From Emiliania huxleyi CCMP1516 (lineage: Eukaryota), in the NCBI RefSeq assembly GCF_000372725.1, contig NW_005201113.1, positions 252,763 through 316,762 of the forward strand: a stretch of 64,000 nucleotides of DNA, in the 5' to 3' direction. The notes below the pieces were generated by a model. The model saw only the letters and a program-made list of their open reading frames with translations, did no database searches and was not told the origin of the DNA. Shown in pieces: positions 35,335-56,883 of the stretch. The position numbers and the translations under genes are program-made. The first letter of the stretch is position 1; the number at the start of each line of letters is the position of its first letter.

Positions 35335-37082
35335 ATGACCCACCTCGTCGCGGACGGCGACCTCGCCGCCACCGCCGACGACGCCGACGCCGCAGCGGAC
35401 CTCTTCCTCGAGGCTGGCGTCTGCGTCTTTGAAGCAGCGCTGCCGCCGTCTCTCGTCGCCGCCTGCCGCTCGGTGCTCGAACGCAAGTCGCGGCTGCTGG
35501 ACGAGCGCCTCGCGGCTCGAGGCGTCGACCTGCAGGCACCGTGGCGCTTCAACGAGGTTTGCCGCCGCCGCTTCGCTCGCTACGACCTCCGCGGCTGGGC
35601 GCTCTCCGACGCCATCTTCACCGAGTCTCTGCTGCTGTGGTCAGCCGCGCCGTGGCTGCCGTTTGTGCGGAGCGTGCTCGGAGACGACGTCAAGGAGCTG
35701 TGGCGCGGCGTGGTCGACAATCGGCCAGGCAGCGAGACGCAGGGCTGGCACCGCGACGGAGGCTTCCTCTTCCCGAACGGTGCCGAGCACCGACGCCTCC
35801 TCCCTCTCTTGACACTCCAACACGCAGACCCTTCCATCACACGCCTGGCGCATTCCCCGAGAGGACTGGTGGTGGGCCGCCCGCAGCCGCGAACAGCGTC
35901 TCTTCACGCTTCGAGCTTTAGCAGGCGTCGACCTGCCTCCGCACTGCCTGACCATCTTTGTGCCTCTGGTCGACCTGCTCACCGATGAGCTCGGCCCGCC
36001 ACAGTTCTTCCCAGGTCAAGCCGAGACTTGGCCGAGACCTAGCCGAGATCTGGCCGAGGTCTGGCCGAGGTCTGGCCGAGGTCTGGCGGAGATTCGGCCA
36101 TGTGTCTATCTGAGGTCTAGCCGAGATCCAGCCGAGGCCTAGGCGAGGTCTGCGAGATCCCACCAAGCAAACCACCGTTCCCAGCCGAGCGGCGATGGAG
36201 GGCTGCAGTGCGGTGAAGCGTCTCTTCACACCTCCAAGCCGTGAACAGGCTCGCGGAGGTGTACGCGCGAGCACCTCTACACTGGCCTCGGCTCTTCACA
36301 CCTCCAAGCCGTGAACAGGCTCGCAGAGGTGTACGCGCGAGCACCTCTACACTGGCCTCGGCGACGGCAGCTGCCACCTGCCCCACTGCACGCCGCAGCT
36401 GTGCGCCGACGCTCTCGCCTTTGACTACCGCATCATCCACCGCGGCCAGGCGAGATCGCCCCGAGATTTCCCGAGATCACTCGAGACCGCCCGAGATCGT
36501 GATCACCGAGATCGCCCGAGATCGCCCACCCGGGATTGGCTGATAATGCCGGCGACGTTGCTGAGAACGAAGACTAGTCACGCAACCATACTAGTGATAG
36601 TCATGGGCTGCGCGTACCCCTCGAGCGCCATAATACGAGCTTTCTCTCGGAACACAGGCTAACCTTAGCAGGGGCGCGGCGCGCCGCTCCAGGCCGATGC
36701 TGTGCCTCGTCGCCAAGCCTCCGCTCGCCTCTTCACAGCCGCCCGGTGTGAACAGGCCGATGCTGTACCTCGTCTACGCCAAGCCGTGGTTCACCGACGT
36801 CCACAACTTCCCCTCCGACGCGCCCCTCTTTGCGGATCCAGACGCGGCGGTCGGCGGCCAACACGCCGCAGGCAACGAGGGCGGTGGTGGGGCGGGTGGC
36901 GGGGCGGGGCAGCAACACGGCGAGCCGCTGCAACCGTCGCCGCCGCCGTCGCCGCCGCCGTCGCCGCCGCCGTCGCCGCCGGCTCAGCCGCCGCCGCCGC
37001 CGCCATCGCGGCCGTTACCAGCGCAGCCGCCGCCGCCGCCGCCGCCGCCGCCACCGCAGCAGCAGCAGCAGCAGCAGCAGCC

Positions 37083-37126
<44 letters not shown>

Positions 37127-37181
37127 CGCAGCAGCAACCGCAGCAGCAGCAGCAGCAACCGCAGCAGCAGCAGCAGCAACC

Positions 37182-37251
<70 letters not shown>

Positions 37252-37509
37252 TCGCCGCCCCAGCAGGCTACCTTTGCGTGGGTGCACACTCTCGCTGACG
37301 TCTCGCCCCCGTGCGCTTGGGACGACTCCGGCGGTCGCGTCCGCTGCCCGAGCGCTTCGCCGCCGCCGCGCCCGCCGACGCATGTCCTGTACGGCGGGCC
37401 GCCTGGCGACCCGTCGCATCAGTTGCTTGCGATCAGTGAGCTGGAGACGCGACTGCGTTTCACCATGAGTGTGGTGCTGGTCGCTGAGACGCCCGAGGCG
37501 CCGACCTAG
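35335..37509 (+). CDS. Phytanoyl-CoA dioxygenase (PhyH)-like 2OG-Fe(II) oxygenase with poly-P/poly-Q tail
   Basis: RPGSETQGWHRDG (HxD), CLTIFVPLVDL..ELGP, AFDYRIIHRG (distal His), RPMLYLVYAKPWF. Multiple introns. Confidence 0.85.
37057..37248 (+). repeat. (CAG)n poly-glutamine tract
   Basis: Directly visible, in frame with the PhyH ORF. Confidence 0.97.
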
Positions 37510-37631
37510 AGACAGACCAGGCCGAGATCAGGCCGAGGCGCCCCAAGGCCGGGCTAGATCTAGGCCACATCTGAGTCGCTGTCTCGGGCGGGGTTCATCT
37601 GTGAGCCACTCCCCCCTTCCCCTTTTCACAG

Positions 37632-38395
37632 GTGCAGCGCAGTTTGCCGCTCGAGAGCTTGCCGCCAGAGGCGTTGGCCGACGAGCTAACGCCGCCGACG
37701 GAGCTGCTGAGGCGGCCTTGTGCCGCCGAGGCCCGCGGCGGCTGTGGCACGGCGTCTCTTCACGCCTCTTGCCATGAACAGACGGCGGTGCGTCGAGGAG
37801 GTCCGCTCTGGTGGCGTGTCGGCGACCGCCGGCGTGGACACCTCCACCTACGTCGCCCCAGATGCCCACGGCGGGCACGGACTGTTTGCGGCGACGGCGC
37901 TGCCGCGGCACCACATCATCGGCGAGTACACGGGCACGCTCGCGCGCGGCTTCCTCGCTTCCGACACCACGGCTTGTAGCGCGGCTTGCGGCACCGAGAG
38001 GCTTTCTGCAGCGCGAGCCCTCGAGGTTCTCGCCAACCTTCGGCGGGATTCGGCCGCATGGTAGGCGCCGACCGGTATTTGATGCGCTACCCGGACGCCG
38101 CGGGCAGCCTGCACCTGTCCGCTCGCTCCGCAGGCAGCCTCCTCAGCGTAGATGCGCGTCTCCCAGCAAGCTCTCGAGAGCTCCGCCTCCTCACCGTCGC
38201 GGGACTTGAGGCTCAGGCAGCCTGCTCCGCTTCGTCAATCACGCGCCGCGGGGCGCACCGGCGAACAACGCGACTTGCTGGGCGGTGCTCGTGGATGGGG
38301 CGTTCCACATACTCGTGGCGACGACGCGTGCGGTCGAGAAGGGGGAGGAGCTCGCGTACGACTACGGGTCTGCGTATTGGGCGAGGCACGGGTGA
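37632..38395 (+). CDS. SET-domain methyltransferase exons (probably same transcript as PhyH)
   Basis: GHGLFAATAL..IIGEYTG, RFVNHA, GEELAYDYGSAYW are hallmark SET motifs. No separate obvious ATG; begins after an acceptor AG at 37630-37631. Confidence 0.85.
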
Positions 38396-38691
38396 AGCAG
38401 AGCTCCCTTTCTACTTCACCATGAGCCAAGCGCTTTGGTGTGTTTGGGATTGGGTGTGGCTTTCTTATCGGAGTTCTCGCAGTCCTCGAGAGAGAGAGAG
38501 AGGAAGGTCCTGGTGCAGAGAAGAATGTACAGGCACAGAGAGAGAGAGACGTACAGATTCGTACAGCGGTCCAGGTGGATATGAAATGTGTTTTATCTCT
38601 GTACTACGAGTCACGGTACTGACTTCTGAGTACTGTACATGCCACCTAAAGGGTGCCGACGTAAACCACTCCCGACGCGCTAGAGCCGCCA

Positions 38692-41028
38692 TCACATCAT
38701 CGACGCTCCCGGCCCCGCCTGCAGCGAGCCCCCCGCCTTGCCATTCTCGACTGTGTGGTCCGCGATGCCGTTCAGCGAGTTGAAGAAGGAGATGGCGCCG
38801 AGGGCGGCGATGCCGATGATCGCGAGCACCGTTTGGAGCACCTCGGGGAGCGGCGCCTTCCCTTCCTCGCCCGAGGTCGTAAAGAGGCTCAGCTGCTCCG
38901 TGCTGAAGCCGGCCAGCACCCCGATGCCGAGGCAGAGGTCGAGGAAGGCGGACCCAGTGATGAGGCCAGACGCGGCGAGGATCGACTCGTGCGTGCGCAG
39001 GAACGCCTCGTTCGAGCTCTTGGTGCACATGCGGACCTGCTCGCCCGCGAATCGACACAAGGAGCCGACAAGGATGCCCATGCCGAGAGATGCAGGGAGG
39101 TAGAGCCCCACCGCCATGGCCATCGCAGGGATCTGTATGCTCTCGCGCGACACCAGGAAATCCGCAAGGACGCCGACGACGCCAATGCCAATGCCGACGG
39201 CTACCGGCTTGAACGGGACCTTCGCGGCGAGCAGCAGCCCGTCGACCAGCGTGGCGAACATCTGGCCCTGCGGCGCAATCAAGCGCTCGGTGCCGAGACC
39301 ATACGCGTCGTCGGCGACGTACAGCGCGCACGGCACCACGATTGAGCCGGCCAGGCCGCCGATGAGCTGCGCGACGAAACCAGAGCGCGGCGGGAAGCCG
39401 CACAGCTGCAGCGCCTTGCAGTCCTGGCTGAGGTCGTTGGCCGCACTTACGGCGACACACGTGCCCGTGAGGACGTTCTGCAGTAGCTCGACGTCGGAAA
39501 AGGCGTTGCGTCCCCACGCGAGCAATAGGAGGCAGAAGACGAGGGCGGTGATGAAGATGGTGCCCGAGACCGGCGACGCGGACGTTCCGATCTGGAGGGA
39601 GAGGACGGCGCCTAATCATGGACATGTGCTGTGAAGAGACGCTCCTTCCCCTCGAGCCCTGAACCGCCCTCGGCACCGAGCGCGGACATGAGAAGGGCCA
39701 TAAAGACAAAGGCGGCGAGCATGGTGATAGTGAAGCCGTCGAGGCCTGTTCACAGCCTGCGCATTAGTGCACACCTACCGTGTGGCCACCGTTGGCGAGG
39801 ATCCCTCTGGGGCCGTCTGTGAGGAGGATTTGCAGGCCCATCAAGCAGGACCCAGCGGCGATGGCGACCCATAAGAGCGACACCACTCGAGAGGGCAGGG
39901 AGAGCAGCTCCGCCTCGCTCTTGGATAGCTCGTCCACCATGGCGGCCCCCGTCGGGCTGAGAAAGCGCAGCATAGCGTATATCACCGCGGCCGTCATCGC
40001 GCCGCCTCCAATCCAACTGGTGGAGTCGGAGGGCCAGTCAACGGCCGCCTCTGGGTCGGAGAACTTCATCTCGGCGAGCATGTACTCGATGATCAGGCGG
40101 ATGGCCGCACCACCAAAGATGACGAGCGCGGTTGGAAGCGTGAGCAGGGAGCCTATGGAACGCATCGTGCATTCTTCGTGTCGTCGACGCCGACATCAAG
40201 AACCAGCGAGGGGCAGGCGGGAGCGGGCGCCGATCCCGATGTAAACAGGCGAGAAGGGGACCTGCACCTCGAAGGCCTTGCCGGCGGCCGTCTCCATCGC
40301 AAAGAGGGTCACGTTGGCCTTGGCGAGTGAGAAGTACACCAGCAGGGGCGAAAGGAGCGAGGTGAGGCAGGCAAGGAGGAGCGACACACACAATGCCGGC
40401 CTCCTCCCTTGCGGCTCCGTCGCTGTCTTAATCAGCGTGACACACGCCTGAGCCTCTGGCGCCGGCAACGACGGGTCGGACAGCAAGCTCTTTGTGAGGA
40501 GCCCGACGACGCCCTGGCCGAAAACGGAGCCGGCGAGGCACACGCAGATTGTCATGCCGATGTTGACTTTGGGCAGCTGCTTGTCAGGTGGCAGGTTGTC
40601 GTCGATGCAGCCCTGCGCCGCCTGCCATTCCATCGTCTGGAGGTCGCAGTCGATGCCCGCCTCGTCTAGAGCTGCCTGTGCCTTTTGAAGGTGAAGCACC
40701 TGCATCAGCGGCCCGGCAAAGACACAGCCAGTTACCACTGGCATCGCAGCCGAGCCAGTGACCTGCGCCAGCGCGAGGAATCGAGGGCCGTTCGCGCCCT
40801 GGGCAACCTTGCCAAGCACGCCCCAGCAAAAGAGCACAACCAGCGGACTCACCTGCATGAAAGCGGGGGTGACGGTGACCTGTGAGGCCTCTTGCAGGTG
40901 TGACAAATCGCAATGCTCACCCCGGGCGTGATTCCGGCCTTGAGCGACGCAACAACCATGGTCGTCGAGAGGAGCATCGTCGTCGCCGAGCCGACGATGA
41001 TTGCGAGCACGTCCGCGCCGAAGCCCAT
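38692..41028 (-). CDS. OPT/YSL-family oligopeptide or metal-chelate transporter (multi-exon)
   Basis: SLKAGITPGVS, TGCVFAGP, AANDLSQDCKA, LIAPQGQMFATLV, AMAMAVGLYLP, ASGLITGSA. Many hydrophobic helices. Confidence 0.88.
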
Positions 41029-41498
41029 TGCGCAGCCGCCGGCACGGAGATGCCACAAGAGGGCGGACGGGCGGAGAAGCTCTCCGTCTGCAAGAAAAGA
41101 ATTTTTTGTCCGAAGCCGGGGAAGAAGACTCCGAGGAAGACGAAACACCAGTGGTAATCCCGTCGTCAGCTGTAACGATGCACCCGAAGGGGACCCCAGC
41201 GCCAACATCATCGGTGGAGGTACAAGTGTTCGAAGAGAGAGTGGACCTGAGCAACGATATGACTTGGCGGCAAATGATCGCAGTGGGCGTCAGAAGAGTC
41301 GTCCTTGCGCGAGGAGAGCTGGATAAACTCGAGGGGCCGAAATATGCCGCGAGGAGGGCAGAGTTGCGCCGAAAGGCGGGAGAAGCCGCGAGAGCAAGGG
41401 ATCGGCAGGCGGCGGCGGCGTCGCAGGACGAGGCAGTGAGACGAGAGCGACGCGACAGAGGAGGAAGCGACAGGAGGGAGAACGACGAGAGTGGGACG

Positions 41499-41665
41499 AA
41501 CAAGGTGCAGCTCGACAAGGTGTGAACAGCGTCTCTTCACACCTCTGGCTGTGAACAGGCCCTCTCAACAACAAAATGCAGCTCGACAAGGTGAGCGCGC
41601 TGGTGGAGGACGCAAGGGCGCAGGGCTGCGAGGTCCTGTGCGGCGGAGGCAGGCGCGAGGGGTCC
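41499..41665 (+). pseudogene. Isolated aldehyde dehydrogenase exon fragment
   Basis: After the acceptor at 41558: GPLNNKMQLDKVSALVEDARAQGCEVLCGG, a typical ALDH segment. The rest of the gene is absent. Confidence 0.65.
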
Positions 41666-42501
41666 CAGCCGATGTAGAGAGTGTTCCCCGTTATCATTGA
41701 TCCAAAGCACTGCCAACGGGTCAGAGTTATGACGTCCGTGTATGAGTTTACGAGGGTGAGAAGGAAGAGCGTCGCCTGGCAGTAGAACGCATTTGCTTAT
41801 CGCCCCGCGTGCTGGGTGTCTGGGACGACGCTCCGCTCTGCGGCAACCGGCTCCTTGTCTTCGGAACTTCCACTATGCACGGTCTGCATGTGGTTGTCTG
41901 CACGCAACACAAAGATGTGTTGACGGGCGAACGAACGCGCGCGCTCAGAAAGAAGTACACGAGCCGACGCACGATAGAGCGGAATTGGAATTAATTTCCG
42001 TCACCAACGCCGGCGGGGGGCAGCGGGAGCGGAGGAGGTGGGAGTTGGATGATGGGGAGATGATGAAAAAAGACTTTATAACGAACTCCCTCGCACAGCA
42101 CTGGGCACGGGACTGGCGCGCACTGGCACTAACACAGGTACACCACGGGAGCCGCCTACGCGACTCCTGCGAGAACGGCGAGGTATTGTAGATTTACTGG
42201 GCCGTCCCAAGAACAATTTTAGAGAAAGAAAACATGCAGGGTCAATCGCGAGACGCTCTCTTAGTCCCGCCTCCCTTCCGCCATGCAGGCCGACGTGGGC
42301 AGCGATGCCGCGAGTTTGTTGTCGGTGCTCTCCGGAGTGCTGGGCTCGAGCCTCACCTTCGATGCAGCGCTACCATTCACCCCGCAGCCACTCGCCGTGA
42401 CCTCAACCGCGCTCGCACCTGCATCCCGCGTCAGTGCAAAGTACGCGTTCTACAGCGCAGGCTGCGCGGCGACGCGAGCTCAGCTTGCACGATTGCCCGC
42501 C

Positions 42502-43185
42502 ATGACGCTGGCAAGCTCAATCGCGCTTGCGCTGTTGGCGGCGGTTTGCTCTTCCTCGGCGCCGCGCCTCGTCCCGCTCGCGCTCCTCCTACTGGCGGAT
42601 CGCTGCGAAGCCGCGGGCACGATCTGCGACAACAGCGTGCCATGCATGGGCTGCCCCACCAGCGCTGTCGGCACGTCGCTGTGCGACGGCACCTACACGG
42701 GCACCCGGGTGGATCTGTCCAGCCGAGGGCTATCGGGGACGATCCCTCCGCAGCTGGGCGACATCTCGCAGCTGGAGTATCTTATCCTGATAGACAACTC
42801 CATTTCGGGCACCATCCCTCCGCAGACGAGCAAGCTCTCGCGGCTGGAGGCGCTTAGTCTGAACAGCAACTCCATCTCGGGCACCATCCCTTCGGATACG
42901 GGCAAGCTCTCGCTGCTGCAGTATCTTTACCTGAACAGCAACTCCATCTCGGGCACCATCCCTCCAGATACGGGCAAGCTCTCGCAGCTGGTGAGGCTTG
43001 ACCTGTACGACAATGACATCTCCGGAACCGTGCCGTCGCAGCTCAACAACCTGCCGCTAAACACCTGCTACCTGGGTGGTACAAACCACTTCGCCTGCCC
43101 CCTGCCCGCCCTTCCCGATGTCTGCTCGCTCTTTCCTACTGAGTGCAACTACCCGCCGCCCTCGCCGCCCTCGCCGCTCCCGCCG
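42502..43185 (+). CDS. Signal peptide plus plant-receptor-type LRR ectodomain (N-terminal part of candidate receptor)
   Basis: Hydrophobic leader; LxxNxISGTIPxxxGxLxxL repeats; Cys cap NHFACPLP; start of a PPPSPPSP stalk, then cut by an insertion. Confidence 0.85.
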
Positions 43186-43446
43186 AGCAGGAAGGCTGCT
43201 GGCTCCTGACTCATCCCCCAAATCCTCCACACCTTGGCGGCCTGAAACCTTACCATTCCGACACCTCACACACACCCCCTCCCCTAGGGCTAAGCAGTGC
43301 GCGAGCCCACCCGACTTCAGGCGAGACGTTGACCCCTCTTTTGGAACAGTCTGTCAGTGGCTGCACTAAACGCCCCCAGAAGCGCCCGGCGCGGGCAGAA
43401 GACTAGGGGAAAAAAAAGCGAAAACCTAGCTCCGCTGGGAGAATGG
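43186..43446 (+). mobile_element. ~260-bp repeat (transposon end) inserted in the Pro-rich stalk; inverted copy at 47753-48007
   Basis: AGCAGGAAGGCTGCTGGCTCCTGACTCATCCCCCAAATCC... is near-identical to the reverse complement of 47753-48007. Runs into the assembly gap. Confidence 0.8.
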
Positions 43447-43606
43447 NNNNNNNNNNNNNNNNNNNNNNNNNNNNNNNNNNNNNNNNNNNNNNNNNNNNNN
43501 NNNNNNNNNNNNNNNNNNNNNNNNNNNNNNNNNNNNNNNNNNNNNNNNNNNNNNNNNNNNNNNNNNNNNNNNNNNNNNNNNNNNNNNNNNNNNNNNNNNN
43601 NNNNNN

Positions 43607-45444
43607 CCCAACCACCGCCCTTGCCAACATGGCCCTAGCCGCCACCGCCCTCGCCACCACCGCCTTCGCCAACACCGCCCTTGCCGCCGTCGCCGCCGTC
43701 GGCGCCACCGCCCTCGGCGCCCTCGGCGCCACCGGCCGCGCCACCGGCCGCGCCACCGGCAATTCCTCCGTCGCAGCCGCCGCCGACGCCGCCGTCGCCA
43801 CCGCCGTCGCCGCCGTCGCCGCCGTCGCCGCCGTCGCCACCGCCGTCGCCGCCGTTGCCGCCGTCGCCGCCGTCGCCGCCGTCGCCACCGCCGTCGCCGC
43901 CGCCACCGCCACCGCCCTCGCCACCACCGCCCTCGCCACCACCGCCCTCGCCACCACCGCCCTCGCCACCACCGCCCTCGCCGCCGTCGCCGCCGTCGCC
44001 GCCACCGCAGCCTCCCTCGCCGCCGTCCCAACCGCCCCTGCCGCCCCCGTCGCCCCCGCGGCCCCCCGCAGCACCTGCGCCGCCGCTCCTTCCATCGCAA
44101 GGCCAGGAGGCGGAGATGATCCTTGCGATCGCGGTGGGGTCGGGTGTTGGGGCCATCGGCCTCGTCGCCGCGATCGTCTGCAGCTGCGCGCTCTTGGAGA
44201 CAAGGAGGCGGAGCAGGGCGCGCGAGGGGCGCGTCACGGTCCGAGTGGAGCCACGCCAGGAGGTGGAGCTCGCGCAGGTGGAAGAGCCACGCCAAGAGGC
44301 CGGTGGCGACAACGAGCAGAGCGCGCGCGACAGCACGCAGGACGACGCCCTGAATGCGGAGGAGGACTTGCAAGAGCCCAGCGTGGTCCACACCATGATG
44401 GTCAGCGCCGTCGCCTCGCTGGTCGGCGGCCTCGACGCCCTCCGCGTGCTCCACACCGCCACCGAGGCTCACGTCGAGGAGAACCGCTTCGCCAACCCTC
44501 CTTCAGAGCTCGTGTTTGGGCGCCCCGCCACAGCTGCCTTGGGCGTGGAGCACTACATGTGCGCTCCAAGAGAGGCTGTCCTTCAAGGACTGATCGACGG
44601 CACCGCCGCCGTCATCCGGGAGGTGAGTGCCGGCGGCACTGACGACGACCGCGAGTGCCTCGACTACATCCTGCACGCCGAGGCGGGCTCGAGCGAACAA
44701 ACCTATCAGGGCGGGCTCAAGCGCGACTGCGACGAACGAGGCAGGGTGCTTGCGTGCCGCACCGTGGCCGACAGCAGCGGCGTGATGCGCGGGATGCGGC
44801 TAGAGGACTTTGTCTCTCACCGGAGCGCGCGGCTGGCCAACCTGACTGAGGCGCACGTGGTCGCTCTTCGTCTCTATACTACGCAGGCAAGCTCCTCTGT
44901 CTCCAACCCTCCCGCTGCCCTCTGACTCGGCCCGTTTCTCACCTCGTCCTCTCTCGGATCCCAGGCCTACAAGAGCATAAACAACCCGCTGCGCGACAAG
45001 GACCGCTTCTTGCGCGGCGAGCCGCACATGCTGCCAGTGACGGTCGCACTAATCCGTGATGCGCTCGGCAAGCTGCGGGCGGTCGAGGCGGACCACTCGC
45101 GCGATTCCGCATTGCGTCGCGTCTACCTCTACCGTGGCATGAAGGACGTCACGGCGCCGGCCGACTTCATGGAGCAGGGCGGGACGGAGCTCGCGCCCAT
45201 GTCGACCACATCGGACCTCAGCGTCGCGATGAAGTACTCTGCGAGCGTCAAGGCGGTGCTGCTGCGGCTCATCACCGACTCCTTCTACGAGCGCGGCCCT
45301 AACATAAGCTTCCTCTCCGCCTTCCCCGGCGAGGCGGAGTTCCTCTTCCCACCGCTGACGTACCTGCAACCGACCGGCGACGTCGAGACGGTGGTGGTCG
45401 AGGGGCTTTCCTACGAGGTGGTGGACGTGCGGCCGCGGATCTGA
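43607..45444 (+). CDS. Extensin-like stalk, TM helix and cytoplasmic R-S-E mono-ADP-ribosyltransferase domain
   Basis: (SPPP)n; TM ILAIAVGSGVGAIGLVAAIVCSCALL followed by RRRSR; ALRLYTT/AYKSINNPLR; LYRGM (R), MSTTSD (STS), FPGEAEFLFPP (ExE). GC-AG intron 44887-44964. Confidence 0.85.
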
Positions 45445-46097
45445 TTGGTCTTTGAGACCCGACCGGCAGCGGCGCGGAGCCCGTCGACATGACCTGCATG
45501 TGTTGCACCGCCCGCGTCCCCGCGAGCACGCCGCTGCCAGGGTCCGACCGCTGCCAGGATGGTGGCGGATGCGGCCGTTGCTCATAGGGGGGGGGGGGGG
45601 GGTTGGGGGGAGGGGGGGTATTTGTCGAGGTTTGTGGGTGTGGGTGTATGGCCATGGGGTGCCGGCCTAGCTACGGGATCGTGTGATGTGCCAGCCTCGC
45701 ATGTCTTGTGTCTAGGAGAGAGGCTCCGTCGTCCGTGCCCCCCGTGGCGAGCAAGTGGATGGCGTGACAGGCAGGGGAGGCCTCTAGGGAAGCAGGGGGG
45801 CGGGGGGCTCTCGCCCGGGGGACGACCGCGAGGTGGCATGAAGGTTGCAGCGAGAATCGGCGAGGGCGCTGCGAAGGGAGATAGAAAGAGGCAGACGACC
45901 AAGGGTTTAGGGTGGGCGACGGCTAGCACCACCACTCCTCTCCTTAAAATCCCTGTGTGGTGGCGGCGTGCCGTCCTCCCATCCCTCCCTTGGGTTGTCT
46001 GTTTTCTTTCTTTCTTTAAGATATTTCTGGTGGCGGTCGCGCGCTGCCGACGGCTCGCCGGCGTGCGCTCGCGGCGCGCTCGTGGCGTTCAGGGCGG

Positions 46098-46135
<38 letters not shown>

Positions 46136-46687: not shown

Positions 46688-47179
46688 ATGTTGAGGCCTG
46701 TCGAGGTGCTCCTCGATCTGACTGACGACTCGCTCCTCACACTCGCCTTTGTCATCGGCGAGAACCGGGTACCGAGCGTGCGGCGCCAGCGTGCGCTCAT
46801 GTGGGACTCGCCCATCACGAGTGCAGCAATCGAGCTGAAGGCACTGTCGTGCACATGCCACGCACTGCACACGCTTCTGGCGCCGCACTTGACGACGCTT
46901 CGCGAGCACCTCTTGGAGAAGCTGCGGTGCTCCCAGGGCAGCACCGACGTTACCCGCAGAAGGCTCGCCGACCAGACCCTGCTGCTCTGGCGCTCGGCGC
47001 TTCTGAAACCTCAGCACCGTTGCGCTGCCCTGGCTGAGGACAGGGTGGCTGTGAACCCTGCCCAGCTAGCGGCCACCGAGCGCGAGATCGCAGCCCTCAC
47101 GCTGCCTGCCGATGGCAGAGCACGCCCACGCTCGCGCACCACGCGAAGTCGCCTAAAGCTCGCACCGGCGCAATCTTAG
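46688..47179 (+). CDS. Small F-box-like ORF
   Basis: LLDLTDDSLLTLAF...LKALSCTCHALH is a split F-box-like pattern. Lies among repeats. Confidence 0.4.
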   Translation: MLRPVEVLLDLTDDSLLTLAFVIGENRVPSVRRQRALMWDSPITSAAIELKALSCTCHALHTLLAPHLTTLREHLLEKLRCSQGSTDVTRRRLADQTLLLWRSALLKPQHRCAALAEDRVAVNPAQLAATEREIAALTLPADGRARPRSRTTRSRLKLAPAQS

Positions 47180-47752
47180 CTCGGCCTTAGCTCAGCGTTT
47201 CCGACACAGCGGTCACAGTGGCCGCTCGGCTACTACCTGATAGTCCTACCACATGGCCGAAGCTGAGCTGCTACTTCTGCTACGATATAGCGCATCACCT
47301 GGCCGCAGCTGAGCACACTCAGTGACAGCTTCACGCTTAGTCCGGACGTTGCTGTCTTTGTGAGCGTTATTGATCCATTGCCAGGCTTTAGGGAGGGGGA
47401 GAGGGAGAGATCTCCGGTAGCCACAGCTCGTACGCGATCCCAGGGCAGGGGGGTGTGGTTTCTGGAGCTCTAAGGGGGGACAGAGAGAGGAAGGGAGATT
47501 GGTGTGCCTGTTTTTCGCGCTAAGCATTTTTTCCCCTCTAGCCTCTACGGCTCTAGCTTGTAGCTAAAGCCGTATAGGTGTCGAGAGACTCACTTATTTT
47601 TGATTTTTTTCATGCGCGAGAGGCCGAGAGAGATGCGTTCAAAGTTCAATTTTGAAAAAAAACTGTTCAGTTTTCAAAGGCAAAAACGCCAGCCTACGCC
47701 CTCCCCTCACACTGACACTTCTCCCCTATTCCCGTCTTTAGGTTGCGCACAT

Positions 47753-48007
47753 CTCCCAGCGAGCTAGGTTCTCCGCTTTTTCTCCCCTAGTCATCTGCCC
47801 GCGCCGCGCGCCTCTGTGGGCGTCTAGTGCAGCCACTGACAGAACTGTTCCAAAGGAGTGGTCAACGTCTCGCCTGAAGTCGGGTGGGCTCGCGCACTGC
47901 TTAGCCCTAGGGGAGGGGTGTGTGTGAGGTGTCGGAATGGTAAGGTTTCAGGCCGCCAAGGTGTGGGGGATTTGGGGGATGAGTCAGGAGCCAGCAGCCT
48001 TCCTGCT
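47753..48007 (-). mobile_element. Second copy of the ~260-bp transposon-end repeat
   Basis: Inverted relative to 43186-43446. Confidence 0.8.
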
Positions 48008-48840
48008 GGACCTGAGTTCACAGCTCCTCCGCCCGACGGGGTGGTCCCTTGGATTCGGGCCCCGCTCCCTTTTCCTGCGCCTGGTCTGTCCCTGTCAAGT
48101 GTGTGTTGCGAGATGCAGAGCTGGTTAGGCTGGAGCGCGGGCGGTGCGGTGGCAGGCGAGGGCAGCGCGGTAGGCGAGAGGCGGCCGCGGGGCTTCGAGT
48201 GGCGCGATAGGAGGGTAGGCTGGCTGTGGAGGGGCGCCGCGTGGCCTCGGCAAATGAGTAGTGCTTTATGAGCGGCCAGTTTTGTGCGTATTGCATATCG
48301 AGCCTGCGGTGTGGCCTAGTTGGTGCAGCGTTCGGGTCGGGGACGTTTTGGTCGTTGGTTCGAGCCCAGCTGGTGCAGTTCGTAGTCGCGTAGCGCGCGG
48401 GTGCGCGGCAGCCTCGGCAACCGAGGCGACAGTGGCGAGCAGGGGCGAGCAGGGGCGAGCAGGGGTCAGAGCAGTGCGGCGCGCCGAATTTTTTTCGATG
48501 GGCTCGGTCAGTGGGCGTGTCAGGAGGCGGCCGGCCGGGGGAAACTCGGCAGTAAAACTCCCGCGCCGGCCCAGGAGGTGGGAGTGTCACGGAGGCGGCC
48601 ATTGGCGCGCGCTCCTTCTCTTCGTGGGTCCGAGTTTTCCAAAGTTCAATTTTGATTAGTCATCCACTTTTTGTGAAATTTGGACATTTCTCACACGTTG
48701 TGTGCTAGGAAAGCTGGCTGCCGCCCAAGGCATGGCCGTCAAGCGGAGATAAGGCGCGGAGATGCGGCGGTGAGTGCGGCGGCGAAACTGCGTGGAGAAC
48801 CACGGCGCACCTGGCAGGGCGTCCTAGTGACGCACCCGCC

Positions 48841-50525
48841 TCACGCGCCGCCTCCGCCGCCGCCGTCGCCGCCGCCGCCGGGCCCTTTGTCACCGTCCGA
48901 CTCCGGGGCGATGGAGGAGGTGAGGCCCCACCTGTCGGCGGAGCGGCGGCGTGTCAAGGGGCGCGAGAAGGCTTTTGCTCGCCCTCCGTGCGACCGCCCG
49001 TGTGCCGCATGTCTGACTGTCGCTGTCCGGTCGCGCGATGACGGTCCCGGGGCTGTGCTGTTGTGTGAAGGGGGCGCGGGCGAGGAGGCGCCTCGACTGC
49101 ACCTCGACTGCATCTCGGCTGTACCTCGGCTCTGTCCCTCGACTGTACCTCGGCTGTGTGCCTCGCCTGTGTGCCTCGGCTGTACCTGTATCTCGACTGT
49201 ACCGCAGCTGTGCCTCGGCTGTACCTCGGCTGTACCTCGGCGGCATCTCGGCGGCATCTCGGCGCATCTCGGCGACGTCTCACTTTTGCAGCTCCATGCA
49301 GTACTTCTTGGCTTGCTGCTTCCAGGTGATGGTGACGGTCGCAGAGCCCATCGTATGCACCTACAGGAGATGATAACGGGGGCGATATCAGGGACGTGTC
49401 GGGACGATGTCGTCGGGACGATGTCGGGTCGGGGACGTGTCAAAGCGGCGTCGTGGACGTGTCAGAGCGGTGTCAGGGACGTGTCGGGACGATGTCGTCG
49501 GGACGATGTCGGGTCGGGGACGTGTCAAAGCGGCGTCGTGGACGTGTCAGAGCGGTGTCGGGGACGTGTCGGGACGATGTCGGGTCGGAGACGTGTCAGA
49601 GCGGTGTCGGAGACGTGTCAGAGCGGTGTCGGGGACGTGTCAAAGCGGTGTCGGGGACGCGTCAGAGCGGTGTCGGGGACGATGCCAGGGCGATGCCCCA
49701 GGGACGCGTCGGGGACGCGTCGGTGTGAGGTGTCTGGGGACTGGATCGAAGAGCCGGGTAGGCTCTGCGAAAGGGCCCTCTCGTACCGCTGGGTGTCTTG
49801 CGAGTCTGCGTGTCTGTCTCGCGTCCACCCATACCGCGTTGGTGTCCAGTCCGAGCCTCTGACTGTTCTTCGCCCCTCCATCTGTCTATCGCACCGTGGT
49901 TGTGATGCGGTGGGCCTTCTTCCGCGTGACCGTCTTGACGACCGAGACGATCGCGTAGATGACGTAGTCCCACGTGTGCACCTGCGCCGCACGCGCGTGC
50001 GTTGGGCGAGGCAACTCTGGCGGCGGCGGCGGCGGCGGCGGCGCGGCGCAGGCCGAGCGGCGCTGTCGTGTCGGATGGGGTGCGCTTTGCGGCTGGGAAG
50101 GCCGCCGATCGGTGGCACCAGCGGCCGAGGCGAGGGCCAGCGGTAGGGGAGGTGCGGCGGCGGCGAGCAGCAGAGTGCGGGGAGCCTTGCGGCGGCTGGC
50201 GCACGTCATCGTTGTGTATCAGCAGCCGCCACATCGGCTCGTTTGCAATCTCCTCCTTGCTCATCTGCTTGGGCTCGGCCTTGGGCCGCTCCACCACCGC
50301 CGCGCCGCCCTTCTTCGCCTTCTTCTCCCGCTCCAGCCCCTCCTGCATCCACACGCCACCCGCCGCAGCCGCTGCAGCCGCGCCAATCGCACCGCGCGGC
50401 CGAGCTGCGGCCGCCGCAAACCGCGGCTGCAGCAGCGGCCCCCGCGCAGGCTGCGGCCGCAGCGCTGTTCTCGCGGGGTGCAGCGTCAGCGCCGGCGCTA
50501 CCAAGAGAGCCGCCAGCAGGGACAT
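48841..50525 (-). CDS. clpS: ATP-dependent Clp protease adaptor ClpS, likely plastid-targeted (4 exons)
   Basis: PMWRLLIHNDD/VHTWDYVIYAIVSVVKTVTRKKAHRITTT/VHTMGSATVTITWKQQAKKYCMELQK/WGLTSSIAP. Bipartite signal plus transit-like leader MSLLAALLVAPALTLHPARTALR. Confidence 0.92.
49820..49871 (+). repeat. Dispersed ~50-bp element copy 2 (inside a clpS intron)
   Basis: Same core as 1877-1927. Confidence 0.85.
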
Positions 50526-51222
50526 GATCGCGGCGCGGCGACAAGGGTGGTGAGCGGAGAGCAGCGGCGAGCTCAGAAGCGCCACCAAAAGAATTCACCG
50601 GTGCTTTCTTTCTTTTTTTCTGAGAGCGCCTTCGTTGTTAATAGTACAAACCCAATGGTCCTCTGCGAGCGGTCCTTCGTTGCAGTCGCACACACGCACA
50701 CGCCACACCGCACCGCGCGCCCGCCCACCGCCCCGCCCAGGCGGGAAAGAGATGAGGAGATGGGACAGCAAAGGAGGAGTACGAGCACGTATGGGAGGGT
50801 TCAGTAATGCGCCACGCTGCCCGGCGTTTCTCACTTTCCGGGACAGCCCCGCCCTTTTGAGGCGGGAGAGTGACGGCTACCCCGTACGCGCCTGTTGCTC
50901 TACCCCGACGCCGACCGCCCATTCCCCCCTCCTCGTTCCCGCCTCGAACTCTCCGGACCCCGACAAGCCGCTCGCCGTTATGGGCCTCTGCCCCGCACGC
51001 TCCCGCCCCTTTTGCCCCTCACACACACACCCAGGCCCGACATGCACATACAAGACAAACCCGGCGTCCTGCTCTCAAAAGAAAAGAAAAAATGGGAAGG
51101 AGGAGACCAGCGGGGGAGACTCCTTTCTTAGCTTGGGTGCGTTTTATTTATAGCCCCCGCTACCCAGTTGCACTCGTGCGACGTAGCGGGGGGCCACGAC
51201 TACGTTTACGAAAACAGAAGTT

Positions 51223-52135
51223 AGAGAGAGAGATTTTTAGCAATACCTTAAAGAGAGGTTACAGGCGTGTAAGGTCCGTTAGCGCAATACCAAACAACTC
51301 TAACACTCACACGTCATTTGGGGCCTGGAGTTAGTCGCGAGGCGGGAAATCTGCTCCGAGTAGCCCCCTGTTGCTTTTCAACACAGAGCCGTTTTTTCGA
51401 GAGAGAGATTTTTAGCAATACAATACCAAACAACTCTAACACTCACACGTCATTTGGGGCCTGGAGGCTGGAGCCCTGTTCACGCGCGCGCGAGACGTGC
51501 AGACAGGGTTGCCAGGTGAGAGCGAATGGCGCGGTTCACGCCTCGCACAACAGAGAGAGAGATGCGCTCTGCATGGTGGGACATAAAAGAAAGCGAGTAC
51601 GTGGGCGAGTAGGCCGTGCGGTCGACGCTGCCGCGCGCGACTTTGCGCGCGGAGAGAGAGATTTTTAGCAATACCAAACAACTCTAACACTCACACGTGT
51701 TTTTGTTTGTTGCGCGCGAGGCGGCGCAGCTTGAGAACGGCGGTGGGCGAGAAGCCGCCGCCGAAAATCTCGTGGAGCAGCAGGTTGAAGTTGTTGCGCT
51801 TGACAAAGATCGCGTCGTGGTAGAAACCGCGATGCGCCTTCGTGACGTAGCCGTGGCCGTTCTTGTGGTCGAAGGGTTGGCCGGGCTGCCCGCGCGCCTT
51901 GCAGCCCATGTTTAGGCGGCGGGCCTTCTCCTCGGTGTTGCCGAAGGCGTAGGAGTGGCCAACGGAGGCGGGCGTGCCGCCGCTCGAGGCGTTGCCAACG
52001 CCCGCCGAGGAGGTCTTGAGGAGGGGCGTCCAGAGCTTGACTTCATTCACCTCATCGCATCCTCCCGGGCCAGCGTGGGGTTCCGCGAGGTCGACCTTGT
52101 ACCCCTCGTTGTACTGCCGGTTTTGTTTTTTTGGT
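51223..52135 (-). mobile_element. Stack of non-LTR retrotransposon 3' ends, one with a restriction-like endonuclease (RLE) fragment
   Basis: Three copies of GTGTGAGTGTTAGAGTTGTTTGGTATTGCTAAAAATCTCTCTC (minus strand, some interrupted). ORF 51691..52155 (KVDLAE..NEVK..EEKAR..LLLHEIFGGGFSPTAVLKLRRLAR) resembles the C-terminal RLE region of CRE-like elements. Confidence 0.65.
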
Positions 52136-52472
52136 TTTGTTTTTTTTCGTGGCAAAAATCGTCACACAAAAGTCGGCGCCTCGAAGGGTGAAGCGGGTTA
52201 GCCTCTTCCCACCCAGGTTTCGCGACTCTGCGTGGCCGACTCACACAGCGAGCCTTCCTGTCTCCCTGCTGCCGATTCATCGGTTGTGCTCAGTCAAGAT
52301 ATTGTAGAGTAACAAGTCTCTGTGCGTTTACGTGAACAAGTCTCTGTTGCGTGACTCTGTGCGATTTCGGGCCCGGGGTTGCGCGTTTACGTGAACAGCA
52401 AGTCTCACCGAGAGGAAGCGCCGGAGTCCGGTTCGCGGCGCTGGAGTTGGCCGCCGCTCTGTGTGTCACGCG

Positions 52473-53106
52473 ATGAGCGCAGCCGAGGCCCTCGCCCCGG
52501 CCAAGCAGGCGATCAAGCAGCAGGCGTTTTATATGAAGAAGGCGCGCAATCCCCGCAGATATACGAGCGACACACGCCCCAGCAGCACCGCACATCGCCC
52601 GCCTGCCGCCAGCCTCGGCACGCCGTCGCCGCGCCGCCCGCTCGTGTGATCGTCCCCGCCGCGCTCCAACGCCTCGCAGGCGCTCGACCAGCGCCACCTC
52701 CGCACTGCCCTCCACCATGCCGCGACGATGATCGGCGAGCTCCGCACGTCGGCGCTCGGGCCAAAGGCGTACTACGAGGTGTACATCGACGTGACGACGG
52801 AGCTGCGGCACCTGGAGGAGTTCTTCGAGGCGGAGCACGAGCGCGGCCGCCCCATGGTCGAGCTGTACGAGCTCGTCCAGCACGCGGGCAACGTGCTCCC
52901 GCGCTTGTACCTGCTGCTGGCGGTCGGCCGCGTCTTTCTTCAGTCCAAGGAGGCGGCCGCGAAGGTCGTCCTCGAGGACCTGGTCGAGCACTGCAAGGGG
53001 GTGCAGCAGCCGCTGCGCGGCCTCTTCCTGCGCAACTACCTGCTGCAGTGCACGCGCGAGCGGCTGCCAGACACGGGGTCTGACTACACAGACACAAACA
53101 CAGACA

Positions 53107-53174
<68 letters not shown>

Positions 53175-56100
53175 TGCTCTCTCAGGTCGGACTACGAGGG
53201 CGAGGGAGGGACCGTCTCGGACGCAATCAAGATCGTCCTCGCCAACTTCGGCGAGATGGCAAAGCTCTGGGTGCGTCTCCCCACCTCTCTCCCCACCTCT
53301 CTCCCCACCTCTCTCCCCACCTCTCTCTCCACCTCTCTCCCCACCTCTCTCCCCACCTCTCTCCCCACCTCTCTCCCCACCTCTCTCCCCACCTCTCTCC
53401 CCACCTCTCTCTCCACCTCTCTCCCCACCTCTCTCCCCACCTCTCTCCCCACCTCTCTCCCCACCTCTCTCTTCCACAGGTGCGGATGCAGCACCAGGGG
53501 CCGGCGGCGAACAAGGAGCAGCGCGAGAAGGAGCGCGCCGTGTCAAGGGTGGTGCTGCAGCTGTGGACGGCGTCTCTTCACGGCTGCGGCTGTGAGCAGG
53601 AGCGCGCCGAGCTCAAGGTGGTCGTCGGCGGCAACTTGCACCGCCTGGCCTCGCTGGAGGGGGTGACGCTGCAGGTGTGTGAAGTAGACCTCGGGGCGGG
53701 GGCATGCGGCGCAGCACACAAACGGCGATAGACTGGCGCAATCCATGCCGGGGCGCACGCGGCGGCAAACGGTCTCTGCCGACACCGCGTATGGGCAAGA
53801 CATCAGATCGCAAGCGCAAGGCGCGAGAGTAGAGGCCGGCGCCGCCGCCGGCTGCGCAGGTGTACACCGCAGAGGTGGTGCAGCCGCTGCTCGAGCTGAT
53901 CGTGTCGTGCAAGGACGGGCTGGCGCAGGAGTACCTCCTCGAGTGCGTCTGCCAGGTCTTCCCGGTCGCGTACCACACCGCCACGCTCCCCACCCTCCTC
54001 CGCTTCCTCTCCTGGCTGTCCGCTGCCGCCGACGAGTCGGCACCCAAGATGTAGCCGAGAGATAGCCGAGAGATAGCCGACGCACACACGCACACACACT
54101 CACACACACACTCTCTCTCTCACACACACACACACACACGCACACGCACACACGCACACACACACACACACACGCCGCCGCCGCCGCCTTCGCCGCCGCC
54201 GCCGCCGCCTTCGCCGCCGCCGCCGCCGCCGCCTTCGCCGCCGCCGCCTTCCTCTCGTATTCGGCCATCCTCTGTGCTATATCTCGGCTGTATCTCGGCG
54301 AAGCCTCGGCAGGCGATCCTCTCGCACCTGATCAGCCGCCTCTGCGCGCTCGAGCCTGCCGACGGCGAAACAGAGGCGCGCGACGTCTTCACGCCCGTCG
54401 CCGACCACGTCGAGCGGCGCTGCGCCTCGCTGCGGCTGCTGCCGTCGCTCGCCCTCGCCCTCGCCCTCGCGCGGCTCGCGCTGGAGGCGAGATGCGCCCA
54501 GGCTGCCCGAGATGCGCCCGGAGATTGCACGAGATCGAGACTCATCAAGCCGAGGCCCGAGCGCCTCCGATCTCGGGCGACCTCGGCCGATCTCGGCCGA
54601 TCTCGTGTGATAGGCGTACGAGGCGCACACCGAGTACCTCGAGCGCGCGCTCTCCCTCGCGAGCACGCGGCTCGAGTCGCTCGGCGTCGTGACCGAGAAG
54701 CGGGCGGTGGCGGTGGTGCAGGACTTGCTCTCGCTGCCGCTGAAGCGCAAGGGCGGCGACGTGCTGTACGTGCTCGAGCTGACCGAGTGGCCGAGGCTGG
54801 CGGCCCTAGAAGCGGAGTACGTGTTCATGTCCCCCAACCAGCGCCCGAGAGGACACGTGTTAAGCCGTACTCGGCCGCACTCCGCTGTATTCACTGTCCT
54901 CGCCTCCGTTGTACTCACGCGGTGCTCTGAAGACGACTCTGCACGATACCGTCCTCCCGCCCTGATGTCGGCGTCTTCAGCACGTAGGCTCGTGACGCTC
55001 GGCGCTCCACATCTCCCCACATCTCCCCATATCTCCCCATATCTCCCCACATCTCCCCACATCTCCCCACATCTCCCCACATCTCCCCACATCTCCCCAC
55101 ATCTCCCCACATCTCCCCATATCTCCCCATATCTCCCCATATCTCCCCATATCTCCCACGTAGGCTCGTGTCGCGGCTCGAGCCCGACGAGCAGCGCCGA
55201 GTGGTGTCGCGCCTGCTGCGGGAGGTTGCGGGCCGCGGCTGCGTCATCTCGGACTCGCTTCGCGCAGACCGGCTGCTCGTGCTGTGCGCGCCGCTGCTCC
55301 AAGGGGACTCGTCGCCCGCCGCGCCGGCCAATGGCGCCGAGACGGCAAACGGCGCCTCTGACCGCTCGGATGCCGACGGCGAGATGTCGCCGAGAGCGCT
55401 CCGAGAGCCCGCCGGAGATGCGCGCCGAGATGCCGCCGCGATGTCGCCGCGATGCCGCCGCGATGTCGCCGCGATGCGGCCGAGAGCCCAACCGTGGCCC
55501 AAGAGCGAGTCCGCATCGGCTCATGAGCATCGGCTAGGCTTGGACGTTTCCTAGACACTTCCTAGACACTTCCTAGACACTTCCTAGCATCGGCTAGGCT
55601 TGGACGCGGAGCTCGCCGACGAGATGGCGCCGGTGGCCGCCATGATGCACGCGCTCGCGCACGAGGACACCGACGCTGAGGCGCGCGTGCTCAACGCGGC
55701 GTACAAGCACGCCGCCGCCGCCGCGCCGGGTCGGCTGCCCCACGTGCTCGTGCCGCTCCTCTTCCGCTTCCTGCAGGAGCCCACCCCACCCTCACCCACC
55801 CCGCCCCACCCCACCCCACATCACCCCACCCCACCCCACCCCACATCACCCCACCCACCCCGCGGCCCGGCTGATGAGGCGAGGAGCCACCCCTCCCGCC
55901 CCACCCGCCCACCGCCCCACCCGCCCACCGCCCCACCCGCCCACCGCCCACCACGCCGCCGTCCTGCGACCAGCTGGCGCGCCGCGTGCGGCTGGCCGAG
56001 GAGGGCGGGGCCACGCTCGAGGTGTCGTGCGGCAAGCTGCTCGCCTTTGTCGGCCAGATCGTCCAGGCGGTGACCGCCGCCGCGCCCAACCTCGCGCTGC

Positions 56101-56883
56101 GCCTGTACGTGCAGTGCGCGCAGGTGGCGGACAGCTGCGGCGACGACGACGGCGCGTATGAGTACCTCACGCAGGCCTTCACGCTCTTCGAGGAGGAGGT
56201 GGCCGAGCAGAGCGCCAAGCTGGCGGCACTCTCCCTCCTCTCGGCCGCGCTGCCGCACATGACGTCCTTCTCCTCCGAGCAGTACGAGACGCTCGCGCGC
56301 TCCGCCACGCAGTACGGCGCCACGCTGCTCAAGAAGCCCGACCAGGAACAGCGCCGCCGCAAAGCACAGACCCGGCGCAGCCGTGAACGGCGCCTCTTCA
56401 CGGATGACGCCGCAAGTAGGCGCGCGCCGTCGCGAAGGCGTCCTTTGCCTTTTGGCCGCTCGCGGGGCTCTCGCCCCACCGCAACGCGCAGCGCGCGCTC
56501 GAGTGCCTGCAGGTGATATCTGCCCATATCTCCCCATGTCTCCCCATATCTCCCTGCGTCACTCGTGTCCTGAGTGCCTGCAGCGCGCGCTCAAGATCGC
56601 CGACGGCTGCAAGCGGTCGGGGATGCACGCCCCGCTCTTCGTCGAGATCCTAGACGCGTACTTGTGGCACTACGAGCAGGGCAACGACCTCGTCACACTG
56701 GCGTACATCTCGTCGCTGATGCAGCTCATCGACCAGCACGTCGCCGAGTGGCGCAGCGACTGGCAGGCCGCCTCGGACGCGCCGGGCGCGCCGGCCCATG
56801 TCGTGCGCTACGTCGCCACGAGGAGGCACATCAGCGCCAAGGTGCGCGGAGGGTCGCAAAAGTACGAAGGGCTGCAGCTCTGA
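52473..56883 (+). CDS. VPS35: Vacuolar protein sorting 35 (retromer), multi-exon
   Basis: [101 protein letters not shown]. Confidence 0.96.
53279..53470. repeat. Intronic (CCCCACCTCTCT)n minisatellite
   Basis: Directly visible. A related (CCCCACATCT)n array lies at ~55007-55158. Confidence 0.95.

What the first reader, a model, noticed from the sequence alone, without database searches (positions are those of the whole stretch)
36690..56583. Introns bounded by direct duplications of exon sequence: a possible intron-gain mechanism
Seen repeatedly: CAGGCCGATGCTGT.CCTCGTC (36690/36753), CAGGCAGCCT.CTC (38131/38214), TGCAGCTCGACAAGGTG (41506/41577), GGTC.GACTAC (53077/53185), AGGAGCGCGCCG (53529/53598), CACGTAGGCTCGTG (54981/55157), AGCATCGGCTAGGCTTGGACG (55526/55586), GAGTGCCTGCAG (56501/56572). 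In most cases the duplicated segment contains AG|G, so one copy supplies the donor and the other the acceptor, with simple-repeat or motif filler between them. Known: tandem duplication of AGGY and TSD-forming Introner elements are proposed routes to new introns. Inference: ongoing duplication-plus-filler intron creation, which would also explain the excess of GC and GA donors.
Basis: partly seen in the sequence, partly recalled or inferred. Interest (0 to 1): 0.8.

Follow-up and report, generated by a model that had tools for sequence, protein, structure and literature searches.

The report
Coccolithophore introns born from exon duplications
In the bloom-forming alga Emiliania huxleyi many introns begin with a copy of the exon that follows them and are missing from the same gene in relatives, so they likely arose when repeat DNA was patched into a break that duplicated a piece of exon, which may also help explain this alga's many GC splice donors.

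Summary
All eight repeats are real. The window is Emiliania huxleyi (VPS35 hits). Five pairs sit in register on intron ends (VPS35 x3, PhyH-SET x2). Two (54981, 55526) are re-duplicated acceptors inside larger introns. One (41506) lies in a gene fragment. In 26 RNA- or transcript-defined introns, intron starts resemble the next exon's start far beyond re-paired controls (0 of 50,000 permutations, also without the cited introns). Intron ends show no such excess, so the copy mostly supplies the donor. The donor dinucleotide matches the next exon (GT/GT 9, GC/GC 8, crossed 0); 12 inferred introns did not replicate this. The acceptor half is a 10-12-nt satellite or a 37-nt module that fits a published E. 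huxleyi Introner family by length and GC. The 12 VPS35 intron positions are lineage-specific (1 of 114 comparisons shared). A second haptophyte lineage shows the same layout with telomere-type filler. 'Ongoing' gain is not shown: no strain lacking an intron was seen. Verdict: a new variant of known break-repair and Introner intron gain, with unusually long, variable duplications (up to about 35 nt).

The parts
52473..56883 (+). VPS35 gene, 13 exons and 12 introns (donors GC 5, GT 4, GA 3), 790 aa
   Evidence: Spliced alignment of transcript-derived P0001 gives all 12 introns; model differs from P0001 at 4 residues; RNA contig offsets agree
53078..53185 (+). VPS35 intron 2 (108 nt, GT): starts with a 10-nt copy (1 mismatch) of the next exon; (CA)n filler
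   Evidence: both copies in L054; position empty in 17 of 17 other records
53271..53479 (+). VPS35 intron 3 (209 nt, GT): 6-nt overlap, 12-nt satellite; possible parallel-gain hot spot at KLW|VR
   Evidence: same site inferred in P0033 but not in P0029; intron 1 nt away in L043
53531..53599 (+). VPS35 intron 4 (69 nt, GA donor): 32-nt 5' half that copies the next exon over about 23 nt, plus the 37-nt module (53563-53599)
   Evidence: position empty in 16 of 16 other records
54796..55163 (+). VPS35 intron 8 (368 nt, GC): holds an internal copy of its own acceptor and exon start at 54981, followed by a 10-nt satellite (55007-55157)
55379..55597 (+). VPS35 intron 9 (219 nt, GC): holds an exact 21-nt internal copy of acceptor plus exon start at 55526, then an 11-nt satellite
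   Evidence: RNA offset needs 416 nt = 219 + 197; P0001 alignment
56346..56419 (+). VPS35 intron 56346 (74 nt, GA): 37-nt 5' half with weak likeness to the next exon over about 19 nt, plus the 37-nt module
56513..56583 (+). Last VPS35 intron (71 nt, GT): ends with an exact 12-nt copy of the upstream exon end, which supplies the acceptor; 10-nt satellite filler
35335..38395 (+). PhyH + SET-domain gene with at least 8 introns
   Evidence: Homologue P0121 carries PF05721 and PF00856; RNA joints
36222..36362 (+).
36693..36755 (+). Intron (63 nt, GC): about 30-nt copy of the next exon plus a truncated module; inferred from the homologue, junction not displayed in RNA
37712..37781 (+). Intron (70 nt, GC): 32-nt 5' half with a decayed likeness to the next exon over 25 nt, plus a 38-nt module
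   Evidence: RNA joint in X12 and X13
38134..38216 (+). Intron (83 nt, GC) with a 14-nt duplication in register
   Evidence: RNA joint in X12, X13, X14, with 10-14 letters fitting both sides
41522..41558 (+). Cleanest 37-nt GT..AG module (GC 54.05%, 8-nt direct terminal repeats, core CTCTTCAC), between the two 41506/41577 copies in a gene fragment within a region that many contigs cover
   Evidence: an RNA contig matches only 41558-41664 and differs upstream
39612..39650 (-). Module copy ending in AG in a minus-strand gene; its place at an intron end is inferred from the reading frame
26760..30843 (+). Unnamed 9-exon gene; its 8 RNA-defined introns (mostly GT, 11-nt satellite filler) have only 0-6 nt exact overlaps: the counter-example within the window
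48932..50204 (-). Three RNA-defined minus-strand introns (352, 534, 223 nt) with 3-5 nt overlaps; their satellites read, by eye, as the same families as in plus-strand introns when taken on the sense strand

Best explanation
These are lineage-specific introns that likely arose when repeat DNA carrying a 3' splice signal was inserted at a staggered break in an exon, with repair duplicating a variable stretch of the target (2 to about 35 nt). The result is exon - copy - filler - copy - exon. Shown: the layout, the register with real splice sites, and the absence of the introns in relatives. Inferred: the upstream copy begins with the exon's own G|GT, G|GC or G|GA and is read as the donor by a permissive spliceosome, so the mRNA is unchanged. 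The filler (a 10-12-nt satellite, a microsatellite, or the 37-nt module) would supply branch point and AG. Less often the downstream copy supplies the AG (56513; one intron in L054). The same process would also hit existing acceptors and lengthen introns without creating new ones (36222, 54981, 55526). The 30-37-nt 5' halves beside the 37-nt module may reflect a minimum intron size near 60 nt (shortest of 38 introns: 60, 63, 69 nt). The enzyme is not identified; end-joining with fill-in is the most likely.
For: Donor dinucleotide matches the next exon: 9/0/0/8, p=4e-5; within-gene permutation p=8e-5; all 38 introns 10/2/2/13, p=4e-4. VPS35 positions shared in 1 of 114 comparisons, while positions 25/0, 57/1 and 258/0, shared among distant taxa, are missing from this gene. 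An unselected E. huxleyi-type gene in L054 has copies of 32, about 21 and about 25 nt in 3 of 3 inferred introns. In another haptophyte (L024) two introns at positions not seen in the other loci have 15-19 nt duplications with telomere-type filler. Three introns at widely shared positions (L024, L032) have 0-6 nt. P0033 has an insertion of about 106 nt starting with a duplicated VRM that its otherwise identical partner P0029 lacks (148 of 148 residues identical upstream). Short direct repeats at gained introns are the published NHEJ signature (PMC4317165, PMC2809761; passages read).
Against: Three clear cases are duplications of an already existing acceptor, so duplication also acts after an intron exists and need not date its birth. 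Only 12 of 38 introns have an anchored score >=8, and one whole gene has none. The dinucleotide match failed in the 12 inferred introns (p=1.0) and holds for 1 of 3 GA donors. No E. huxleyi strain lacking an intron was displayed (only 15 of 179 joints shown). The closest genomic relative is 75% identical, so the gains are dated only loosely; for the last two introns only non-haptophyte outgroups were available. P0029 could be a partly spliced RNA contig.
Confidence: 0.6

Rival explanations
1. The introns were gained earlier by a precise route, and the duplications are secondary. Later repair near splice junctions (local duplication, or partial copying from spliced cDNA) pasted the next exon's start in front of the old donor and moved the donor upstream.
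For: Three duplications demonstrably hit existing acceptors (36222, 54981, 55526). In introns 53531 and 56346 a full-length 37-nt module with its own GT start sits behind the copy. Published E. huxleyi families of 37 nt are mostly GT-donor, with TSD 'N' or '?'.
Against: No 37-nt intron was found among 38 (shortest 60 nt). Even introns without long copies match the next exon's first bases (uncited set p=8e-4). P0029/P0033 suggest the copy arrives with the intron.
Confidence: 0.22
2. Ordinary Introner transposition with a short fixed target duplication (2-5 nt) made the introns, and the long copies are unrelated tandem duplications in a repeat-prone genome.
For: E. huxleyi CCMP1516 is listed with 653 Introners in 5 families of 37 and 70 nt. 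The window module is 37 nt with GC 54.05%, equal to family 4. Most overlaps are 2-6 nt.
Against: Overlap lengths vary from 0 to over 30 nt. The module has direct, not inverted, termini and no unusual fold (z -0.3 to -1.4). Most introns share no end-to-end sequence. Long copies start exactly at the donor, which independent duplications would not do.
Confidence: 0.12
3. Chance in GC-rich DNA, plus splice consensus and selection for redundant splice signals.
For: About 60 dispersed repeats of similar score arise in shuffled windows. Donor consensus and exon starts both favour GTG/GCG.
Against: Re-pairing controls keep consensus and composition, yet are exceeded without the cited introns. Anchored right-side scores >=12 occur in 3 of 38 against 0 of 1406.
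Confidence: 0.06

Closest known systems
NHEJ / double-strand-break intron gain (Daphnia, Drosophila, Neurospora; PMC4317165, PMC2809761, passages read; Li et al. 2009 seen only as cited there)
   Same: New introns flanked by short direct repeats that overlap the splice sites; near-coincident independent gains.
   Different: Published repeats are about 5-12 bp (one of 16/18 bp) around sequence of unknown origin. Here copies reach 30-35 nt, form half of a 63-74 nt intron, are one-sided (donor), and the filler comes from a few shared families.
Introners with TSD (Gozashti et al. 2022, PMC9860276, passages and supplement rows read; Huff et al. 2016 recalled, and cited there)
   Same: [quoted passage not shown] E. 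huxleyi is listed with 37- and 70-nt families.
   Different: Their TSDs are 3-9 bp and the families are similar end to end. Here the duplication is variable and long, no TIR is seen, and their pipeline removes introns whose likeness covers only part of the intron or is low-complexity. Their consensus sequences were not seen.
Tandem duplication of an AGGY-containing exon segment (recalled; one 614-bp case in PMC4317165)
   Same: One copy gives the donor and the other the acceptor in 38134, 53531, 56513.
   Different: Here the copies are separated by filler, and one case (53078) has G|GT without a preceding AG in the exon.
Interstitial telomeric insertions at breaks (Nergadze et al. 2007, PMC2246262, passages read)
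   Same: Short telomere-hexamer arrays inserted at repaired breaks, like the (CCCTAA)n and (GGGTTA)n filler in L024 introns.
   Different: Not described there as making introns in the passages seen; the E. huxleyi fillers are not telomeric.
E. huxleyi non-canonical donors (Feldmesser et al. 2014, PMC4028052, passages read)
   Same: GC 56-65% and GA about 4% of donors; here GC 18, GT 17, GA 3 of 38.
   Different: That paper ascribes them to genome GC content; the match of donor to next-exon start was not in the passages seen.

Membership tests
Introner | Family of introns similar to each other up to both splice boundaries | tested here: not met
   Only the 3' 37 nt are shared (9 copies aligned, 73% mean column identity); 5' halves are locus-specific
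Introner | Dispersed multicopy element that carries a splice site | tested here: met
   CTCTTCAC-N13-20-AG 9 times in the window against 0.93 expected, 0 of 100 shuffles; also in L054
Introner | Fixed-length TSD of 3-9 bp | tested here: not met
   Overlaps run from 0 to 32 nt
Introner | Terminal inverted repeats (DNA-transposon type families) | tested here: not met
   Module ends are 8-nt direct repeats; folds no better than shuffles. Many Introner families also lack TIRs
Introner | Identity with the published E. huxleyi 37-nt families | tested here: inconclusive
NHEJ-type intron gain | Direct repeats overlapping the splice sites above background | tested here: met
NHEJ-type intron gain | Intron absent from orthologues | tested here: met
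   1 of 114 comparisons shared in VPS35; SET gene not tested in genomic DNA
NHEJ-type intron gain | Empty allele with a single copy in the same species | tested here: inconclusive
   None displayed for E. huxleyi; protein-level hint in another lineage (P0029/P0033)
NHEJ-type intron gain | Dependence on end-joining enzymes | not testable with these tools
   needs genetics
AGGY tandem-duplication gain | Intron made only of duplicated exon sequence | tested here: not met
   Satellite or module filler makes up half or more of each intron

The most novel reading that the evidence does not exclude
Haptophytes run a genome-scale intron factory that Introner surveys filter out. Break repair inserts a branch-point cassette (a 37-nt module or a 10-12-nt satellite in E. 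huxleyi, telomere repeats in another lineage) and duplicates up to about 35 nt of exon, whose first bases become the donor. This built most of the E. huxleyi intron complement, set its GC-rich donor spectrum, and the published '37-nt Introners without TSD' are really the 3' halves of 63-74-nt introns mis-annotated by GT-biased gene models.
Probability: 0.3. Interest if true: 0.82.

Novelty: new variant of a known kind. Interest (0 to 1): 0.62.

Why it matters
How new spliceosomal introns arise outside Introner bursts is a long-standing question, and clear cases are few. Here a whole gene's introns are lineage-specific, about a third of 38 introns still show the duplication, and the donor base tracks the duplicated exon. 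If this holds genome-wide, E. huxleyi offers thousands of datable gain events and a mechanistic account of its majority GC donors, testable with genomes and RNA that already exist. It would also explain gene-model errors: both reference models (P0002, P0003) read through intron 53531-53599.

Tried and rejected
No whole genome is held, so no genome-wide test was run. Motif scans of viral contigs found nothing, nor did a VPS35 scan there. The genome-contig scan gave 16 prokaryotic matches, taken as chance and not used. My first VPS35 model was wrong at two places (intron 6 donor by 9 nt; two introns instead of one at 55379-55597) and was corrected by RNA offsets and P0001. The read lay on VPS35 was swamped by repeat contigs: 15 of 179 joints shown, none at a VPS35 junction. 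The second lay showed 15 of 32 joints, not including 36693-36755. No transcript protein was found for the L054 second gene; only a sub-threshold EDR2_C hit, so its introns are inferred from the frame. A hairpin or TIR role for the module was not supported. Rfam found only one tRNA. Spliced-alignment calls in distant loci with poor homologues (L066, L073, L078, L094) looked spurious and were left out, as were intronless loci that may be transcripts; L018 was left out as of unclear origin. The tree is the quick version only. Earlier-finding searches returned nothing. Read et al. 2013 is not held, and a DOI I recalled for a Phaeocystis genome paper was wrong.
Full report
Identity. Exon 2 of the gene at 52473-56883 is 100% identical to Emiliania huxleyi CCMP1516 VPS35 entries and to a 790-aa protein from a 2,689-nt contig, P0001. 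No whole genome was held, so the work rests on the window, seven sequencing runs laid as contigs, 80 metagenome loci and stored proteins.

Observation. All eight pairs are at the stated places. Shuffled windows also give 40-74 short dispersed repeats, so only the register with splice sites is informative.

Where the introns are. A spliced alignment of P0001 recovers 12 VPS35 introns, and offsets within one RNA contig agree. RNA joints define 10 more introns in two plus-strand genes, offsets define one more, and joints define three in a minus-strand gene: 26 in all. Five cited pairs are in register with donor and acceptor: 53078-53185, 53531-53599, 56513-56583, 38134-38216 (joint in three runs of two studies) and 36693-36755 (inferred from homologue P0121). 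Two are not. The introns are 54796-55163 and 55379-55597, and the first copy lies inside them, so an existing acceptor was duplicated with satellite between the copies. A third such case, 70 nt long, lies at 36222-36362. The 41506 pair lies in a gene fragment; an RNA contig matches only 41558-41664 and differs upstream. Its aldehyde-dehydrogenase label is my recall, and Pfam gave no hit.

More than chance, and one-sided. Pairing each donor region with other introns' acceptor regions keeps consensus and composition. Exact overlap >=8 nt occurs in 4 of 26 against 5 of 650. Intron end against previous exon end scores 2.62 against 2.61 (p=0.49). Twelve further introns inferred from homology or frame (9 in the window, 3 in L054) repeat the right-side result (p=0.0008) and give a weak left-side one (p=0.03). 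Donor dinucleotide and next-exon dinucleotide agree: GT/GT 9, GC/GC 8, crossed 0 (p=4e-5; uncited p=8e-4). In the 12 inferred introns this fails (1,2,2,5; p=1.0); pooled 10,2,2,13, p=4e-4. Only 1 of 3 GA donors matches. Twelve of 38 introns have an anchored score >=8; the gene at 26760-30843 has none among its 8.

The filler. Most introns hold 10-12-nt satellites or microsatellites. A second class ends in a 37-nt module with an invariant CTCTTCAC 13-19 nt before the AG: 9 matches against 0.93 expected, aligned. Its A is a likely branch point (inference). Introns 53531, 37712, 56346, 36693 and one in L054 consist of a 30-37-nt 5' half resembling the next exon (over 19-30 nt) plus this module, 63-74 nt in all. 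Two other module-ended introns (35780, 36015) show no such copy at the donor. The cleanest module (41522-41558) is 37 nt with GC 54.05%. Supplementary Table 6 of PMC9860276 lists an E. huxleyi Introner family of length 37 and GC 54.05% without TSD or TIR, plus two more of 37 nt and two of 70 nt with TSD undecided. Identity is inferred from these two numbers only.

Age. Among genomic VPS35 records, 1 of 114 position-by-record comparisons is shared (entered by hand; 12 haptophyte-clade records by the quick tree, and 5 outgroups). Eight of the 12 are ORFs whose genomic origin is inferred from read-through. The nearest genomic relative (L043, 75%) lacks introns 1, 2 and 4 and has its own intron 1 nt from intron 3, with a 6-nt copy. 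Positions 25/0, 57/1 and 258/0, shared among distant taxa, are absent from the window gene. Coverage of the 3' half is thin: one haptophyte for three positions and none for the last two. Within E. huxleyi-type DNA (X3, X8, L054, both reference models) the displayed records carry the introns, so ongoing gain is not shown. An exact 21-nt copy and a 31-of-32 copy suggest that some duplications are young.

Beyond this species. In L024, an unnamed haptophyte, intron 3737-3858 is two units of a 16-nt copy of the next exon plus (CCCTAA)n. A 104-nt repeat spacing at 4381/4485 has a copy of about 15 nt around (GGGTTA)n, and the intron at the shared position 258/0 overlaps by 6 nt only. L032's two introns at shared positions overlap by 0-1 nt. 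P0033 and P0029 are identical over 148 residues. P0033 then has VRM plus about 32 unrelated residues and resumes as a frame-shifted reading of P0029 for 57 residues. This is an insertion of about 106 nt starting with a duplicated exon start, at the same site as intron 3. It rests on proteins only, and P0029 could be partly spliced RNA.

Mechanism. Most likely (0.6), insertion of acceptor-bearing repeat DNA at a staggered break with variable target duplication. The upstream copy would be used as donor, and selection would keep only spliceable products of about 60 nt or more. Shown: layout, register, lineage restriction. Inferred: the break, the enzyme, the branch point, and that copy and intron arose together. 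The main rival (0.22) is that copies are later additions to precisely gained introns; the three re-duplicated acceptors prove that such later events occur.

Comparison and novelty. It works like NHEJ-type gain (5-12-bp repeats; passages of PMC4317165 and PMC2809761) and like Introners that take the 5' site from a 3-9-bp TSD (passages of PMC9860276). It fails the Introner tests of end-to-end likeness and fixed TSD. That survey removes introns with partial or low-complexity likeness. GC donors in this alga are known and were ascribed to GC content (PMC4028052, passages). Ten library searches and term look-ups in PMC3488318, PMC11347168 and PMC10290126 (passages) found no description of exon-duplicated intron ends in haptophytes. 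Read et al. 2013 and its supplement, which I recall discussing intronic repeats, could not be read and may bear on novelty; so may the family sequences of PMC9860276. Verdict: real feature, interpretation partly right, new variant of a known kind, interest 0.62.

Noticed in passing
window 36222-36362: 70-nt tandem duplication across an acceptor, a third case of a re-duplicated 3' splice site.
   Followed up: yes
L043 5549-5832: Best-fitting intron has a GG donor, 1 nt from the window's VPS35 intron 3, with a 6-nt copy of the next exon; inferred from alignment only.
   Followed up: partly
L024 3316-3400, 3737-3858, 4381-4500: Introns of another haptophyte are filled with telomere-type hexamer arrays in both orientations; CCCTAAC contains a branch-point-like CTAAC (consensus recalled).
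   Followed up: partly
L054 vs window near 52250: Strain difference in intergenic DNA: a 24-nt insertion that can be read as 20 nt of filler plus a 4-nt target duplication, and a 6-nt tandem duplication near 52073. L054 is chimeric after about 1386.
   Followed up: no
window 52542 (VPS35 intron 1): Lies 6 nt upstream of the widely shared position 25/0; could be sliding or loss plus gain.
   Followed up: no
window 41200-41700: Region covered by many RNA contigs, with a captured gene fragment and a perfect 37-nt module; possibly a gene-capturing element.
   Followed up: partly
window module core: TCTCTTCAC loosely resembles the U12-type branch site (recalled); PMC11347168 reports many minor-like introns in this species.
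   Followed up: no
window 14455-14540, 51224-51700: Dispersed repeat of about 80 nt in several partial copies outside genes.
   Followed up: no
window 21480-24300: Long reading frame with 69-nt repeat units (BspA-like leucine-rich repeats by recall), internally duplicated.
   Followed up: no
window 37056-37250: (CAG)65 tract preceded by (CCG)41 between the PhyH and SET domains, in an apparently coding stretch.
   Followed up: no
window 9417-9499 (-): tRNA gene (Rfam).
   Followed up: no
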